Assembly (NCBI GenBank): GCA_037379345.1
Contig: CM074514.1
Coordinates: 19,344,001-19,408,000 of the forward strand
Source: Perna viridis
Lineage: Eukaryota
Direction of reading: 5' to 3'
Length of the DNA: 64,000 nt
Below are positions 3,001-42,000 of this stretch, in pieces. A program made the position numbers. Position 1 is the first letter of the stretch, and every line of letters starts with the position of its first letter.

Positions 3001-6000
3001 ATAGCAAAAAATATTTTCGGTGTAGCCTTTGTTGTTTGTTTGTTTACATGGCCGAGTTAGTCTATGTGATTTAGTTTCTACGTACATGTTTTTTCTGATT
3101 GGTCTTTTTTTTCTTTGTTCTAGAGCTTCTTGGATCCAGTAAAAGAATCAACATAGACTTCCAAGATAATGATGGGTAAGACATAGAAATGATAAGAACA
3201 TACTATGCAGGGCTTCATTTTTAATTGTAATTTTTGTTGTTTTTACAGTTTTAGAAAATCCCTCCATATTTTTTATTATTGTGATTCTTAAATGCCAGTA
3301 AAAATTTTTGCAACACATGTAACAAAATCACAGCAGTAATTTCTAAATTTACAGAGAAATGATTCCACAAATTTAGCTCTCAAAGATTAATGTATAATAA
3401 ATACATGTTTTATCCACGACAGGAATGATATATTGTATCCAAATTTGAAAGAATGTGTGTATGGCATTTAATTAATGTAAATTTCCTCAAAATATACTCA
3501 TAGACAGGGATTTGGGATTACAGTGAACCCCTCTTTAAACAAAAAAGACACTGAAAACTGCTAAAAATGGGCTTAAGATTGGTGAAGCACAAAAGTGCGA
3601 TACTTCCCCCTCCCTCCCAAACAAAACAAAAATTCTAGCTACTGGCCTGCTCATTCACATACATGCATTAGTATAGAACTCAATCTGTTCTTTCTCTTCA
3701 ATTTTACATGTACAATGTATGTCCATTGTACAAGGTTCTTTTATATGACGCCTTCCTTGACTTTACTACAGAATGTCAGCATTACATCAAGCCGCCTTAG
3801 TTGGAAGTCTTGAGATGATGGGAATGTTGCTAGAACAAGGAGCATCTGTTGGCTTAGCAGATAATAAGGGTGAGCTCAATCAGCATTTGTTCATTCTTAA
3901 CACAAACATATTGGTTCTGAACTTTTACTCTACCTTTTTACTGGCTTGGAGATTCTTGAAAAATATTTAATGTATATTATTAAGACAAGATAAAATGACT
4001 TAAGGTGATTAATATAATGTACTACCACATGGTTTCATTAGTGTCTCTTTAGTATTGGTTTTGCTGGTCATTATGGCCATCTCAGTTCTAGAAACTTTAC
4101 ATTGCCATTATTTTTTTTGATAAATCATATTATAAGATTTGCTGGACTAGAGAATTTATATTTTATTTAACAAAACCAAAGTTTGAACAAATACTTTAAA
4201 GGCCGTACTAATTGTAGTGTTGGTTAGCTGTTATCAATTTATTTGTTTAAAAACCTACAAAATTTGTTTCTTCATTTCCACAATTTTTAATTCTATTTTA
4301 AACACATTTTTTTTTCAAAGTATACTACTTTTTTTCACATCTTTCAGAAAACAACTTAGTTCTCTTCTCTGTATCTACCAAAAGTGTTTGTATATAAACA
4401 GCAAACCAAAAATTGATTCAAAATGGCCTCAAATAAAATTTGCTGGTATAAAGTTTGTTTGCTGATGTGAATTGGTGTTTTCCTTAGAACCTTAGTCCAT
4501 TTCATATGCATACATGCAGTGACAAAGGAAATCAAAATACTTTATGTATCAGAATGTCTTTTTTTTTTTTAAATTTTGTCATGTTTCAGTTATCTGTAGG
4601 AGTTTGTATAACATAAATTAAGACACTATATTGGTGTATATCTAGGATACATTACATACATGCACATGTAATAGGTCACTTTTTGATTTTTTTTTAAAAG
4701 GAAATTTTAATCATTTTCAAAGAAATAGTAAATTTTTTAACTGACAAGGTTTTTTTCCTAAACATTCCATATGCTGTATTTTTCAAACATGAGAGTTCTT
4801 AATACTGACTCTATATTGTGCCAGAAATCAGACTAGACCTTCAATTTGTGAATTATTCATTATAAATACATGTATTGCACATTAGTTACAGCTTTGGCAG
4901 GATAAATTTGGCCTTTATTGTTTTAGGTGCATGTGTTTTAACTGTTACTGTTGTTTTGCAGGAATGTTTCTATTACATTAAACCTGCTTACAGGATAGTT
5001 CTTAACCATCTTATACATTATATGTTGTTTTCTTGCAGGAATGCTGGCATAACATTATGCCAATTAGCAGACTAAACCTAAACAGTCATGAACACAATTT
5101 TTTCTCTCACAGAAATACTAACATGATATTACGCCAAATAGCATTTTACACTTGATCCATAACATATCGATTTTTTTTTCTTGCAGGAATGCTAGCATTA
5201 CATTATGCCTGTTGGCAGGGTAAAGCTGATCCTGTACACATGTTATTACAATGGAGATCTCCAGTAAACAACCAGTCATATGATGGTGCTACTCCCCTAC
5301 ATCTTGCCTGCCAACATGGACATTTCGATGTGGTAAGGATTTCAACCAGAAATAAATTGTTTTTGGTTTACTAAAAATCAGATTCCTCAAAGAACCTGAA
5401 ATGTTCTCCACTGTCATGATGATATCAGGATAACAAGTATGAAAAATTAAGAAAATATAGAATTTTATAAAGCAGGGCTAGGTGCTATCTTTACTTTGAT
5501 ATCAAATGTATTTGTTTTTATAGTTATTTTTTGCGAAGTAGATCTAATTGTTCGTTTTATTTGTATATGACTGCTTGGTTGGTTTTCTTATGGCTGCTTC
5601 CTCCAGGTATTTACTACACTATATTTAGTATATATATTTCACGTGTAATATGATAAAAATAGTACACAAACTCTCTAAACTCTGAAAGATGAAATCTAAG
5701 TATGATAGTATCTTTTTTTTCTTTTTGGCTGATACATAATTTGCTGAAGACCATTTGTGTTTGCAAATGATTTTTTGTTCTATTTTACACTTGCGCACCA
5801 TTTGTTTCTCCATAAACCAAGAATTTAGCACAGGTAAAAATAATTCCAGACATATAACCCATGCATTAACAAACTCCAACCCTTTTGGTCATATTTTATG
5901 CTAAGTTCTTTGTGAGATTTGATAAGTCAGCAGTATTGACTAATATATCATGAATTAGCAGTGTAAGTTGGATGTTTTATCTGAAGGGGGTATGATATAA

Positions 6001-39000: not shown

Positions 39001-42000
39001 CTTGAACTAGGCTAGGATCAAATTTGACATAAAATGGCTGGATTTTCACGAAATAAAAAGCCTGGACAGGCCATCAGAAAAATAAAAAGGCAGGATCTAT
39101 TTTTGCCGTAATATTTTTTGTTTATATTCTTGGTGCAAAAGAAAAAAAGGAAGGACCTAAATTTTCTCAAATAAAAAGGCAGGATAGAACATTTGATCTT
39201 AGCTCCCCCCCTCTAGAAGTCAAATGGTTGCTCCCATATGTGATTTAAATAACCACATTTAGAAAAGTACTGGTATATGTAAATTTGGAACATAATTTGC
39301 AACCGTTAGGTAGGCGACCTACTTACTTTTGCACCCACATCCTGAAACATTGCCTTGGAATCAGGATTCATCTACTGGTATATTAGTACCATGTCTTCCT
39401 CCCAACCAATGCCATGTCTTTTTCTGTCATGAATTTGCATGTCATTCTGTTGTACATTTGATTTATAATATTGCCTTAGGGTAACTTAAAATACAACAAA
39501 ACCATAAGCTTATACAAAACAAGTACTGGTTCTATTCAGCAAGATCACATTTTTAAAAGTTGAATCAGGAGAATAGAACATTTCTTTCTATCTGAAAAAA
39601 AAACCATAGAGAACAATACAATCATCGCAGCAGTTACCATTGATTGGCATCTATCATAAATGTTCATTAAAAACTGACTGCTCTATTCCTATGATTGTAT
39701 TGTTGGGTATTAGTCAGATCTGGCATATGTGATACATCTATTTACCGCAAAGATACCACATAAACAACCCAACATAACAGAGGAATGTATTTTATTTCAT
39801 ACATGTGTATATTTATACTGAAAATATGATTTAGAAGCTTGTTTTTATCTTGACATGGCTGTGTTTTGCATCATAATTCAATGAAGTGGAATATAAATGC
39901 AATGAAACTCTTCTCCATTTGAGAGGGTATACTATAGTCAAAGACGGGTAAAAATGCATACGTGAAGTTTCTTTAGAACTGATGCCTTTCATGTTCAGTC
40001 AAGGAACAGAAGAGACATGGATATATAGTTTATTTAGTAGGGCCACTTTTTTAGGCTGTAGGATCTTGATATCACATCATTTTACATCTTGTACTATCTG
40101 GAATCATTGTATTTTTTGCTATATCTTTGCCTATTTTAATTATACCCTTGCTTGCAATGTAATTGCAGTGTGGATACTTCTGTTACCCTTCTCTTATATT
40201 TTCTTCCTCCTACACTACTGAATGGAATTTAATGAAACTTTCACAGAACATTTATTAAATATTTGAGGTGTGCACCTCATGTTTCAGATTTTGATCTGAA
40301 TGTTTTTGACTTTGTCTTCTTACGCAGAATCTTGATTACTTTTTCCCACTTTTCAGGTCCTATGAAGGATACCTACAAATTACCGAACTATTTCAGGTTT
40401 TGATCCAGGTCAGTTTGGAGGACTTCAATGGGGTAGTGGGTGTATAAGTTTAGTGAGCACTGATCCCAATGTTTTTAGTTAAACTTTACCATATTATTAT
40501 TGTTTCATGATGTGTTATATAATCTTACTCATGCTGTCTTGTTACTTCATGTATACCTTTCATTTTGCAGAATCTGAATGGAAGACCAGTCCAGTTCAAT
40601 GGAGAAGATAGATCACCAGTGCCTTATCACCTGATTAATGATATGAAGACTGCTAATTCTATAAGTCCCACCAACTCTAATAGAAATAGTGCTGCCTCCA
40701 GTGACTCAGGGAGGGGCTACAGTACAGGTCATGGGGAACCCAGAGTAAGTAAACACTCTGTCTAACATTTAAAAAAACATTAGTTCTCCCTCCGGTGACT
40801 TAGGGTGGGGCTATAGTACCTGTCAAGTGAAACCCTGAGTAACTATACACTCTATCCCACACTGAAATAAAATAGTGCTCCATCCAGGGACTTGGGGGAG
40901 GGCTATAACTGCAGGCATAGGGAAACCAGGATAAGTATATTGTCTTGTCTCACACTTACAATAAGTAGTTCTCCCTCCAGTTACTTTTGCAGGGCTACAG
41001 TGCCAGTCGTTGGGAACCCATGGTAAGTAAACACTGTCCTACACTTAGTAAGATAAGTGCTCTTTCCATTGACTCAGGGAAGGCTACAGTATAGGTCATG
41101 GGGTACCAAGAACAAGTATTCATTTTGTCTCCCGACTTCATACAATTTAAGATCTTAGTGAATTTTGTTGTTGAAGAAAGTCAAGCTGACAAGTCAAAAT
41201 TATCTTGTTAAAATTTTGATGCTATACATCATATTTTAACAGCAGATATATCTAAGTTTTGATTTGCAAAATCATAAAATCTTTAAAAAAAATAGATAAC
41301 ACTTTTCTATTAATAGCCAATGGTGATTCATTCAAATTTCCATCAACATAAATTTCAGGAAAAAGAAGTTTTAAGTTTGGCATCATTAGATTAGAATTCA
41401 CATAATAATTATAACTTTGAAGAATCACATGTCTTCTTTGTATCAGTAAAAGCGTACATTAACTGCTTTGTATTAGAGAGGAAATCCCATTATAGACATC
41501 CAGTAAACAAAATCAGGATTTAGTTGTCAATATCTTCATGTTATCTGACTTTTTGATTGCAACATTTAAAAGTTAACCTGAAACACTATGCATACTGTTG
41601 TATTTGATATAAATTATAGGGTTGGTTTTGTTTTAAATATTCTCCCCTCCCTATTTTTACCTGACACTGATTTAGGGTTGAGGTAAATTGCTGCAGAAAC
41701 TACTATAGATCAAGGGGCACCTGTTCCAATTCAGAAAACTTCTCCATTTGATTTCTACTTTATTTCCTGTAATTTACTTATCTAATCATCGTTCTACATC
41801 ATAACATAAAAAAACATCTTTGAACATGTCTTACTCAATAATGAAATAGGAAAAAATATCTTTGGTTTGATGTTCATAATTTCAAGAGTAACATCTACAT
41901 CTTGTATTTGTTCATATCCCTATGGATTGTAATGTCGATCAAGGCTGTGTTTAATGGCAGGATTATAATGATAAAGGCATATGTTTTTCTAATGTCGTAT

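What the first reader, a model, noticed from the sequence alone, without database searches (positions are those of the whole stretch)
4945..41130. Recurrent tandem amplification centred on splice junctions at three exons of one gene
Seen: three independent arrays (4945-5210 acceptor side, ~75 bp x4; 11901-12050 donor side, 45 bp x3.5; 40684-41130 donor side, ~92 bp x5) each have a unit spanning an exon-intron junction. The functional copy is intact and the intronic copies are decaying. That is 3 of 37 junctions in the window. Inference: either minisatellite birth is very frequent here and these survive because the extra copies fall in introns, or it is biased to splice junctions. Either way it generates decoy splice sites and raw material for new exons. 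I am not aware of a systematic description of this, but cannot check.
Basis: partly seen in the sequence, partly recalled or inferred. Interest (0 to 1): 0.72.

Follow-up and report, generated by a model that had tools for sequence, protein, structure and literature searches.

The report
Old splice-junction minisatellites in mussel caskin
Three exons of a mussel-like caskin gene each carry a short, decayed tandem array copied from the exon end plus its splice site; this kind of repeat is already known from lancelets and human genes, and one window cannot show it is commoner at junctions than chance allows.

Summary
Three separate tandem arrays each have a unit that spans an exon-intron junction of one + strand gene, a caskin orthologue of a mytilid-like bivalve. 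They are 4945-5243 (74-77 bp x4, acceptor side), 11889-12046 (45 bp x3.3, donor side) and 40684-41140 (89-94 bp x5, donor side). In each, the copy joined to the exon body encodes conserved caskin residues, and the intronic copies have decayed independently from it.

This is a known kind. Lancelet genes carry such arrays, named "mirages" (Adh3, globins, PGBD5, TnC). So do human genes (F7 IVS7, IFI6, CBS, LMNB2, PDGFA).

A junction bias is not established. A naive founder-unit null expects 0.37-0.38 junction-spanning arrays (P about 0.004-0.007). GC-matching raises the expectation to 0.78 (P 0.045). The selection-frozen exon copy also keeps old arrays detectable longer, which pushes P to about 0.08-0.13.

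Best reading: frequent local minisatellite birth, favouring GC-richer sequence, that survives at junctions because splicing hides the extra copies. It is a new member of a known kind and of modest interest.

The parts
3124..54743 (+). Caskin orthologue (ANK repeats, SH3, two SAM domains, long C-terminal exon). 18 exons mapped: 3124-3175, 3772-3869, 5187-5332, 11823-11918, 12642-12769, 13585-13693, 14095-14203, 18101-18195, 23832-23940, 24409-24543, 26003-26046, 40571-40744, 43910-44104, 46126-46236, 49324-49425, 50577-50715, 51217-53217, 54647-54743 (stop codon included). Exon 1 and one exon of about 15 aa were not found in the window.
   Evidence: The last large exon is 67% identical over 100% of its length to Mytilus californianus caskin-2-like (E 1e-264). 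Exon mapping. Pfam exon by exon: Ank in 4 of 6 ANK-region exons tested, SAM_1 in 2 of 2 SAM exons tested.
4945..5243 (+). Array A1 (acceptor side). Copies: 4945-5021, 5022-5095, 5096-5169 and 5170-5243. The last copy is the authentic one: 17 nt of polypyrimidine tract plus AG (5185-5186), then the first 57 nt of exon 5187-5332.
   Evidence: Identity to the exon copy is 65/73/65%, against 50-63% among the intronic copies. All 3 decoy AGs are kept, and each gives a stop within 6 codons.
11889..12046 (+). Array A2 (donor side). Copies: 11889-11933, 11934-11978, 11979-12023 and the partial 12024-12046. The first copy is the authentic one: the last 30 nt of exon 11823-11918 plus 15 nt of intron, GTAAGT included.
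   Evidence: Copies 2 and 3 are 82% identical to the exon copy. Decoy donors: copy 2 GA (lost), copy 3 GTAAAT (kept), copy 4 lost. The frame stays open through the array to 12063.
40684..41140 (+). Array A3 (donor side). Copies: 40684-40777, 40778-40869, 40870-40962, 40963-41051 and 41052-41140. The first copy is the authentic one: the last 61 nt of exon 40571-40744 plus 33 nt of intron.
   Evidence: Identity to the exon copy is 71-74%, against 59-69% among the intronic copies. Decoy donors: copy 2 GTAACT (weak), copy 3 AT, copy 4 GTAAGT (strong), copy 5 AC. A stop lies 7 codons into the intron.
20835..21115 (.). Background intronic array, 160 bp x1.8, 83% matches.
24197..24345 (.). Background intronic array, 37 bp x4, 94% matches. 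It ends 64 nt upstream of the exon that starts at 24409 and does not span the junction.
28203..28599 (.). Background intronic array, 62 bp x6.4, 96% matches.
33219..33318 (.). Background intronic array, 29 bp x3.4, 87% matches. Its score of 165 is just under the simulated maximum of 169.
36146..36438 (.). Background intronic array, 50 bp x5.9, 92% matches.
42630..43528 (.). Background intronic array, 46 bp x20, 93% matches.

Best explanation
These are three independent, old, now inert 'mirage'-type minisatellites.

**Steps, with what is shown and what is inferred**
1. A 45-92 bp stretch was duplicated in tandem and amplified to 3-5 copies. It held the end of a conserved exon plus the adjacent 15-33 nt of intron, splice signal included. 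The copy structure is shown. The mechanism (replication slippage or unequal exchange) is inferred.
2. The copy still joined to the exon body keeps serving as the splice site. This is inferred: there is no RNA data. For A2 and A3 it is the most upstream donor, as shown experimentally for the human F7 IVS7 array. For A1 it is the most downstream acceptor. The mRNA is therefore unchanged and the extra copies are simply intron.
3. Purifying selection froze the exon copy while the intronic copies decayed independently. This is shown by the star-like divergence.

**Why three in one gene needs no junction-specific process**
- Minisatellites are very dense in this locus.
- Their units tend to be GC-richer than the intron background, as exon ends are.
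- Arrays wholly inside exons would be purged by selection.
- A frozen exon copy keeps an old array detectable longer than a purely intronic array of the same age.
For: **The arrays are real.**. Their scores of 235-468 exceed the maximum of 169 in 40 simulated windows.

**The exon is the ancestral source.** The exon parts of the units encode conserved caskin residues. At E<0.001 they are found in 23 of 37 (A1), 22 of 37 (A2) and 31 of 37 (A3) caskin-like proteins from molluscs and other phyla.

**Divergence is star-like.** Every intronic copy is closer to the exon copy than to its sister copies. A1: 65-73% against 50-63%. A3: 71-74% against 59-69%.

**Decay looks neutral.** 6 of 9 decoy splice dinucleotides are retained, against about 4.8 expected from the copy identities. 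Decoy use would give early stops in A1 and A3.

**The background is dense.**
- 8-9 arrays above chance lie in 51.6 kb of gene.
- 5.1% of 2,546 intronic probes have a tandem copy nearby, against 3 of 35 junctions; P 0.26.

**Composition.**
- Exon GC is 41.3% and intron GC 31.5%.
- Units of the 6 intronic arrays sit at GC percentiles 0.57, 0.78, 0.92, 0.28, 0.97 and 0.94 of intronic windows (z 2.06).
- GC matching doubles the expected junction hits to 0.78.

**Ascertainment.**
- In simulation at 30% per-copy decay, arrays with one frozen copy were detected 36 of 40 times (unit 74 x4) and 34 of 40 (unit 92 x5).
- Without a frozen copy the figures were 2 of 40 and 10 of 40.
- With the exon copy removed, TRF no longer finds A1 at all.

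**Precedent.**
- Lancelet mirages occur at both 5' and 3' boundaries (PMC3087553, section 16 read).
- Lancelet PGBD5 has two imperfect junction-overlapping arrays at neighbouring exons of one gene (PMC3902484, passages read).
- In human F7 IVS7 only the most upstream donor is used (PMC1557585; abstract, Introduction and Discussion read).
Against: - Under the mechanistically most natural null, only 0.37-0.38 junction-spanning arrays are expected against 3 seen, P 0.004-0.007. That null places a founder unit at random in neutral space.
- GC matching on the junction arrays themselves is partly circular, because they are GC-rich through containing exon.
- The age split is odd. All 3 junction arrays are old (61-81% matches). 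All 6 intronic arrays are young (83-96%).
- The frozen-copy effect lengthens the detection horizon only about 1.3-1.6 fold in per-copy divergence. It therefore does not by itself explain why no young junction array and no old intronic array are seen.
- All three units are mostly exon (77%, 67% and 65%), where a uniform spread is expected.
- There is no RNA evidence that the decoys are silent.
Confidence: 0.68

Rival explanations
1. True birth bias. Exon ends or splice junctions are hot spots for minisatellite formation in this genome. One route would be exons acting as GC- and G-run-rich islands in AT-rich introns that stall replication. Another would be transcription- or splicing-coupled damage. 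Selection then keeps only the arrays that include a junction.
For: - Founder-unit null: 0.37-0.38 expected against 3 seen, P 0.004-0.007.
- Only 3 of 18 exons, and no other exon, have any extra copy in the window, and all such copies lie adjacent to their exon.
- All three units are 65-77% exonic (with the junction coordinates). An exon-biased process filtered by selection predicts exactly this.
- Intronic array units also lean GC-rich.
- Lancelet authors also suspected a general phenomenon (PMC3087553, section 16).
Against: - n = 3, in one window flagged post hoc.
- After GC matching P is 0.045, and with the detection advantage of a frozen copy about 0.08-0.13.
- No young junction array is present, although 6 young intronic arrays show that births are still going on.
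Confidence: 0.2
2. Selected retention. The intronic copies are kept because they do something, for example as decoy U1/U2AF binding sites that tune use of the authentic site, or as material for alternative exon ends.
For: - All 3 A1 decoy acceptors keep the AG and a polypyrimidine tract, and score above 7-15 of the 18 real acceptors.
- A3 copy 4 keeps a perfect GTAAGT and outscores the authentic donor, 10.5 against 8.5.
- Using the A2 copy 3 donor would add 90 nt in frame without a stop.
Against: - Overall retention of splice dinucleotides, 6 of 9, is close to the roughly 4.8 expected from neutral decay.
- Copies diverge in a star-like way at 18-35% from the exon copy.
- Coding frames of the A1 and A3 decoys are destroyed.
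- The M. californianus and unnamed-transcript orthologues carry no insertion at these three junctions.
Confidence: 0.07
3. Reverse direction. A pre-existing intronic minisatellite was exonised, so the exon ends derive from the repeat. Alternatively the arrays are the remains of intron creation by tandem duplication (Rogers model).
For: Only the geometry: exon ends are homologous to the adjacent intron sequence.
Against: - The exon parts encode residues conserved across phyla. DLACEFGRYR is identical in 10 of the 37 proteins, and NSAASSDSGRGYSTGH is identical in 9 of the 37.
- The units show no similarity to the far end of their introns: 169, 117 and 261 of 300 shuffles reach the observed score.
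Confidence: 0.02
4. Artefact: assembly mis-joins or collapsed haplotypes producing false tandem copies.
For: None specific. Tandem arrays are places where assemblies do go wrong, and the lancelet PGBD5 assemblies differed in copy number (PMC3902484).
Against: The copies differ from one another by 18-50% and carry indels. They are therefore not duplicated reads or haplotypes. The window has no N.
Confidence: 0.02

Closest known systems
'Mirage' minisatellites of lancelets: Adh3, globin genes BflGb6 and BflGb9, PGBD5, TnC. Read: PMC3087553 section 16 and PMC3902484 passages. The founding paper, Canestro et al. 2002, PMC117041, is not held and is known to me only through these citations.
   Same: - Tandem minisatellite-size units (10-160 bp there, 45-94 bp here) that span an exon-intron boundary with its splice signal.
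- Both 5' and 3' boundaries are affected.
- The authentic copy is the one joined to the exon.
- More than one such array can sit in one gene (PGBD5 exons 3 and 4).
   Different: - Lancelet globin copies are 81-100% identical, differ in number between haplotypes and show concerted evolution. Here the copies are 50-82% identical, star-like and apparently frozen.
- The host is a bivalve mollusc, not a cephalochordate.
- Normal splicing was checked by RT-PCR there, not here.
Human intronic VNTRs whose first monomer spans the exon-intron boundary: F7 IVS7 (37 bp), IFI6/6-16, CBS IVS13, LMNB2, PDGFA. Read: PMC1557585 abstract, Introduction and Discussion.
   Same: Donor-side arrays A2 and A3 have the same geometry. 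The authentic 5' splice site is the most upstream one, followed by reiterated pseudo-sites in the intron.
   Different: [quoted passage not shown] Here only 3 of 7 donor decoys keep GT, and only one keeps GTAAGT.
- The F7 unit holds 4 bp of exon. Here the units hold 30-61 bp.
Internal tandem repeats at exon-intron boundaries in human segmental-duplication genes (De Grassi & Ciccarelli 2009; PMC2812944 passages read), and intron gain by tandem genomic duplication (review PMC3443670, passages read). Gao & Lynch 2009 and Zhuo et al. 2007 are cited there but not held.
   Same: Tandem repeats overlapping exon-intron boundaries, surveyed systematically, and seen as a source of cryptic splice sites and new introns.
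   Different: Those cases change gene structure through novel introns or alternative transcripts. Here nothing suggests a new intron: the units do not match the far intron end, and the protein matches its orthologues across the three junctions.

Membership tests
Mirage-type (junction-spanning) minisatellite | Head-to-tail tandem array with a minisatellite-size unit | tested here: met
   Periods are 74-77, 45 and 89-94 bp, with 4, 3.3 and 5 copies. Scores are 235-468 against a simulated maximum of 169.
Mirage-type (junction-spanning) minisatellite | The unit contains an exon-intron boundary with its splice signal | tested here: met
   The junctions 5186|5187, 11918|11919 and 40744|40745 lie inside the terminal copy of A1, A2 and A3.
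Mirage-type (junction-spanning) minisatellite | Regular splicing is not disturbed; only the authentic copy is used | not testable with these tools
   There is no RNA data. Indirect evidence: the exon copy encodes conserved residues, and decoy use would give early stops in A1 and A3.
Mirage-type (junction-spanning) minisatellite | Copy-number instability or polymorphism, and homogenisation among copies (81-100% identity in BflGb6) | tested here: not met
   Inter-copy identity is 50-82% and star-like around the exon copy. Polymorphism itself cannot be tested from one sequence. I therefore file these as fossil members, not active arrays.
F7 IVS7-type VNTR with reiterated 5' pseudo-sites | The first monomer spans the exon-IVS boundary, and the authentic donor is the most upstream | tested here: met
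   Met for A2 and A3. Not applicable to A1, which is on the acceptor side.
F7 IVS7-type VNTR with reiterated 5' pseudo-sites | [quoted passage not shown] | tested here: not met
   Of 7 decoy donor positions, 3 keep GT and only A3 copy 4 keeps GTAAGT.
Intron gain by tandem duplication (Rogers model) | The two ends of the intron are homologous duplicates of one exonic segment | tested here: not met
   Unit against the far end of its intron plus the neighbouring exon edge: 169, 117 and 261 of 300 shuffles reach the observed score.
Caskin (the host gene) | N-terminal ANK repeats, SH3, two SAM domains and a long C-terminal region, with orthologues named caskin | tested here: met
   Named caskin hits at E down to 1e-264. 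Colinear tblastn of the orthologue over 18 exons, including the SH3-region exons. Pfam Ank and SAM_1 found exon by exon. The joined protein was not built or searched.

The most novel reading that the evidence does not exclude
Exon ends are real hot spots of minisatellite birth in this bivalve, as lancelet workers suspected for their animals. On this reading, GC- and G-run-rich exon termini embedded in AT-rich introns seed tandem amplification. Selection then removes every product except those that carry a splice junction and can hide in the intron. That would make junction-spanning arrays a regular, lineage-independent source of decoy sites and of in-frame exon extensions, such as the 90-nt open extension available at A2.
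Probability: 0.2. Interest if true: 0.55.

Novelty: new member of a known kind. Interest (0 to 1): 0.3.

Why it matters
- **If it is only what the evidence supports.** The case extends a repeat type described in lancelets and a few human genes to a mollusc. It also shows what such arrays look like long after they stop turning over.
- **A warning for annotation.** Intact decoy acceptors and a perfect decoy donor lie within 100-300 nt of the true sites. Gene predictors could mis-call these.
- **A methodological point of wider use.** An array with one copy frozen by selection stays detectable longer than a free array. Any genome-wide test for a junction bias must correct for this and for base composition.
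- **If a true junction or exon-end bias exists.** It would bear on how cryptic splice sites, exon extensions and perhaps new introns arise.

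Tried and rejected
- **Default TRF.** It missed A1 and A3, so I used permissive parameters with a simulated score ceiling.
- **Protein search with the A2 read-through frame.** I hoped genomic ORF fragments of relatives would show the array. Only 2 hits came back, covering 47-53% of the query, which is the exon part. Uninformative.
- **Orthologous DNA.** None could be fetched. Conservation and dating of the arrays in related genomes stayed unchecked.
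- **Further, older copies beyond the array ends.** Nothing convincing: 28, 9, 143, 12 and 173 of 300 shuffles reach the observed scores.
- **Whether the background arrays are carried by transposable elements.** There were 0 dispersed hits for 10 of 11 array units, and the eleventh had one hit just beside its own array. A 64-kb window gives this test little power.
- **Exonisation of a pre-existing repeat.** Rejected.
- **Rogers-type intron creation.** Rejected.
- **tRNA and Rfam scans of the window.** Nothing found.
- **Papers not held.** Gao & Lynch 2009, Canestro et al. 2002 and Zhuo et al. 2007. What I say of them rests on citations in papers I read and on recall.
- **Mollusc reports.** Searches found no report of junction-spanning minisatellites in molluscs. 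The one mollusc hit opened (PMC6905558) describes a purely intronic minisatellite.
- **Supplementary files.** They are closed and I did not ask for them. Additional files 4-6 of PMC3087553 (mirage unit alignments and trees) may bear on the comparison of copy identities.

Full report
**What the window is**

The window is AT-rich (about 32% GC), has no N and no tRNA or Rfam match. It is not human.

One long + strand gene fills 3124-54743. Its large last coding exon is 67% identical over its full length to Mytilus californianus caskin-2-like (E 1e-264), with named caskin hits across molluscs and other phyla.

I mapped exons by tblastn of that orthologue against the window and by reading the splice sites. 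This gave 18 exons and 35 junctions. Exon 1 and one exon of about 15 aa between 53217 and 54647 were not found.

Pfam run exon by exon found Ank in 4 of 6 ANK-region exons tested and SAM_1 in 2 of 2 SAM exons.

- A1 has four copies starting at 4945, 5022, 5096 and 5170. The last copy holds 17 nt of polypyrimidine tract plus AG and the first 57 nt of exon 5187-5332.
- A2 has copies at 11889, 11934 and 11979, plus a partial fourth. The first copy holds the last 30 nt of exon 11823-11918 and 15 nt of intron.
- A3 has five copies at 40684, 40778, 40870, 40963 and 41052. The first copy holds the last 61 nt of exon 40571-40744 and 33 nt of intron.

Permissive TRF scores are 245, 235 and 468, against a maximum of 169 in 40 simulated windows. 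Default TRF found only A2.

A blastn of each exon plus 40 nt of flank against the window found extra copies for these 3 of 18 exons only, always adjacent to the exon. The only other hits were three chance-level matches of 19-21 nt. The three units do not match each other, so the arrays are independent events.

**Direction and history**

The exon parts of the units encode strongly conserved caskin residues. At E<0.001 they were found in 23, 22 and 31 of 37 caskin-like proteins. The exons are therefore ancestral and the intronic copies derive from them, not the reverse.

Every intronic copy is closer to the exon copy than to its sisters:

| Array | Identity to exon copy | Identity among intronic copies |
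|---|---|---|
| A1 | 65/73/65% | 50-63% |
| A2 | 82/82% | 78% |
| A3 | 71-74% | 59-69% |

This star pattern is what one frozen copy plus independently decaying copies would give. Within an array the copies are about equally far from the exon copy. That suggests, as an inference, a short burst of amplification followed by inactivity. A2 is younger than A1 and A3.

The units show no similarity to the far ends of their introns. The arrays therefore did not create these introns.

**Decoy sites**

- All three A1 decoy acceptors keep the AG and a pyrimidine tract. They score above 7-15 of the 18 real acceptors on a crude matrix built from this gene. The real A1 acceptor is the strongest of all 18.
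- Use of any A1 decoy acceptor gives a stop within 6 codons.
- Of seven donor decoy positions, three keep GT: A2 copy 3 (GTAAAT), A3 copy 2 (GTAACT, weak) and A3 copy 4 (GTAAGT, which outscores the authentic donor).
- Read-through at A3 meets a stop 7 codons into the intron.
- At A2 the frame stays open through the whole array. The copy-3 donor would add 90 nt in frame.
- Overall, 6 of 9 splice dinucleotides survive, against about 4.8 expected from the copy identities. I see no sign of selection for or against the decoys.
- No RNA data were available.

**Is it more than background?**

The answer depends on the null.

A 60-nt probe centred on each junction was aligned to the adjacent 500 nt of intron. 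3 of 35 junctions score 40 or more (61, 60 and 53; the next best is 29), against 5.1% of 2,546 intronic control probes. The binomial P is 0.26. This test weights the background by expanded array length.

(b) A founder-unit null. An array occupies only one unit of ancestral sequence, so I placed one unit per array at random. For the 9 arrays in the gene this expects 0.37 junction-spanning units, P(3 or more) 0.004. Excluding wholly exonic placements gives 0.38, P 0.007. Placing whole arrays instead gives 1.3, P 0.12.

(c) Composition. Exons are 41.3% GC and introns 31.5%. Units of the six intronic arrays sit at GC percentiles 0.57, 0.78, 0.92, 0.28, 0.97 and 0.94 among intronic windows (z 2.06). 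Matching placements for GC raises the expectation to 0.78, P 0.045. This matching is partly circular for the three junction arrays themselves.

(d) Ascertainment. In simulations at 30% per-copy decay, arrays with one frozen copy were detected 36 of 40 times (unit 74 x4) and 34 of 40 times (unit 92 x5). Arrays without a frozen copy were detected 2 of 40 and 10 of 40 times. With the exon copy removed, TRF no longer reports A1, and A2 drops to 166. The detection horizon is about 1.3-1.6 times longer with a frozen copy. That moves the expectation to about 1.0-1.25, P 0.08-0.13.

(e) The pattern was chosen post hoc from one window.

I conclude that a junction bias is neither shown nor excluded.

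**What remains odd**

- All three junction arrays are old (61-81% matches). All six intronic arrays are young (83-96%).
- All three units are mostly exon (77, 67 and 65%).

A real exon-end birth bias followed by selective filtering would predict the second point. I give that reading about 0.2.

**Comparison with what is known**

[quoted passage not shown] They are described for lancelet globin genes at both the 3' end of an intron (BflGb6) and the 3' boundary of an exon (BflGb9). There the units are 150-160 bp, 81-100% identical, differ in copy number between haplotypes, and leave splicing normal by RT-PCR (PMC3087553, section 16 read).

Lancelet PGBD5 has imperfect 60-bp and 108-bp arrays overlapping splice sites of neighbouring exons. 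TnC is also cited (PMC3902484, passages read).

In humans, 'several genes' have a minisatellite whose first monomer spans an exon-intron boundary: F7, IFI6/6-16, CBS, LMNB2 and PDGFA. In F7 only the most upstream donor is used, through an oriented scanning process (PMC1557585; abstract, Introduction and Discussion read).

Variable internal tandem repeats at exon-intron boundaries were surveyed in human segmental-duplication genes. That survey reports 162 alignments and 27 intron modifications (PMC2812944, passages read).

Tandem genomic duplication as a route to new introns is reviewed in PMC3443670 (passages read).

The present arrays meet the structural definition of a mirage. They fail the features of an active one (high inter-copy identity, homogenisation), so I file them as fossil members.

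My six relevant searches found no report from molluscs. That is a statement about the held library only.

**Verdict**

The finding is a real feature, a new member of a known kind, and of modest interest. Its mechanism is ordinary: local tandem amplification made neutral by splice-site choice, then decay around a copy that selection holds fixed. The one open and testable question is whether exon ends are favoured birth sites. It needs a genome-wide count that is founder-unit based, GC-matched and age-stratified. That count, and any comparison with related genomes, could not be run here.

Noticed in passing
window 2100-2620 (+), 20180-20560 (+), 44250-44760 (-), and a tail only at about 27150-27450 (-): A dispersed repeat of about 450 bp with a strongly conserved 3' tail of about 50 nt and an internal 22-23 bp tandem repeat (TRF rows 2459-2513, 20367-20413, 44294-44342). 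It looks like a SINE- or MITE-type element. ARAGORN and Rfam find nothing in it.
   Followed up: partly
window 24197-24345: A very young 37-bp x4 array (94% matches) fills a third of a 468-nt intron. It ends only 64 nt upstream of the acceptor of exon 24409-24543 without touching the junction.
   Followed up: partly
window 42630-43528, 28203-28599, 36146-36438, 61530-61939: Four large, nearly homogeneous minisatellites (46 bp x20, 62 bp x6.4, 50 bp x5.9, 64 bp x6.4; 90-96% matches), none with dispersed copies of its unit elsewhere in the window. Three of the four units tested (the three intronic ones) are GC-rich for intron: 40-46% against 31.5%.
   Followed up: partly
window 5113-5122: In A1 copy 3 the decayed exon sequence reads TACTAAC, which I recall as the classic yeast branch-point consensus. 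It lies about 65 nt upstream of the authentic acceptor, and a CCATAAC lies about 25 nt upstream. The branch point of the authentic acceptor must sit in former exon sequence. Not tested.
   Followed up: no
window 11802-12065: The reading frame of exon 11823-11918 stays open for 147 nt into the intron, through all A2 copies (unit 45 = 15 codons). A gene predictor could extend this exon or call a 30-residue in-frame insertion.
   Followed up: partly
window 63648-63845 (-): A 65-aa open frame on the minus strand with proline-tyrosine motifs (PPAYE, PPNYE). It may be an exon of a neighbouring gene downstream of caskin. Not examined.
   Followed up: no
window 26047-40570: One intron of 14.5 kb holds four of the six intronic arrays and a tail copy of the dispersed repeat. 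No exon of the Mytilus orthologue maps inside it.
   Followed up: no
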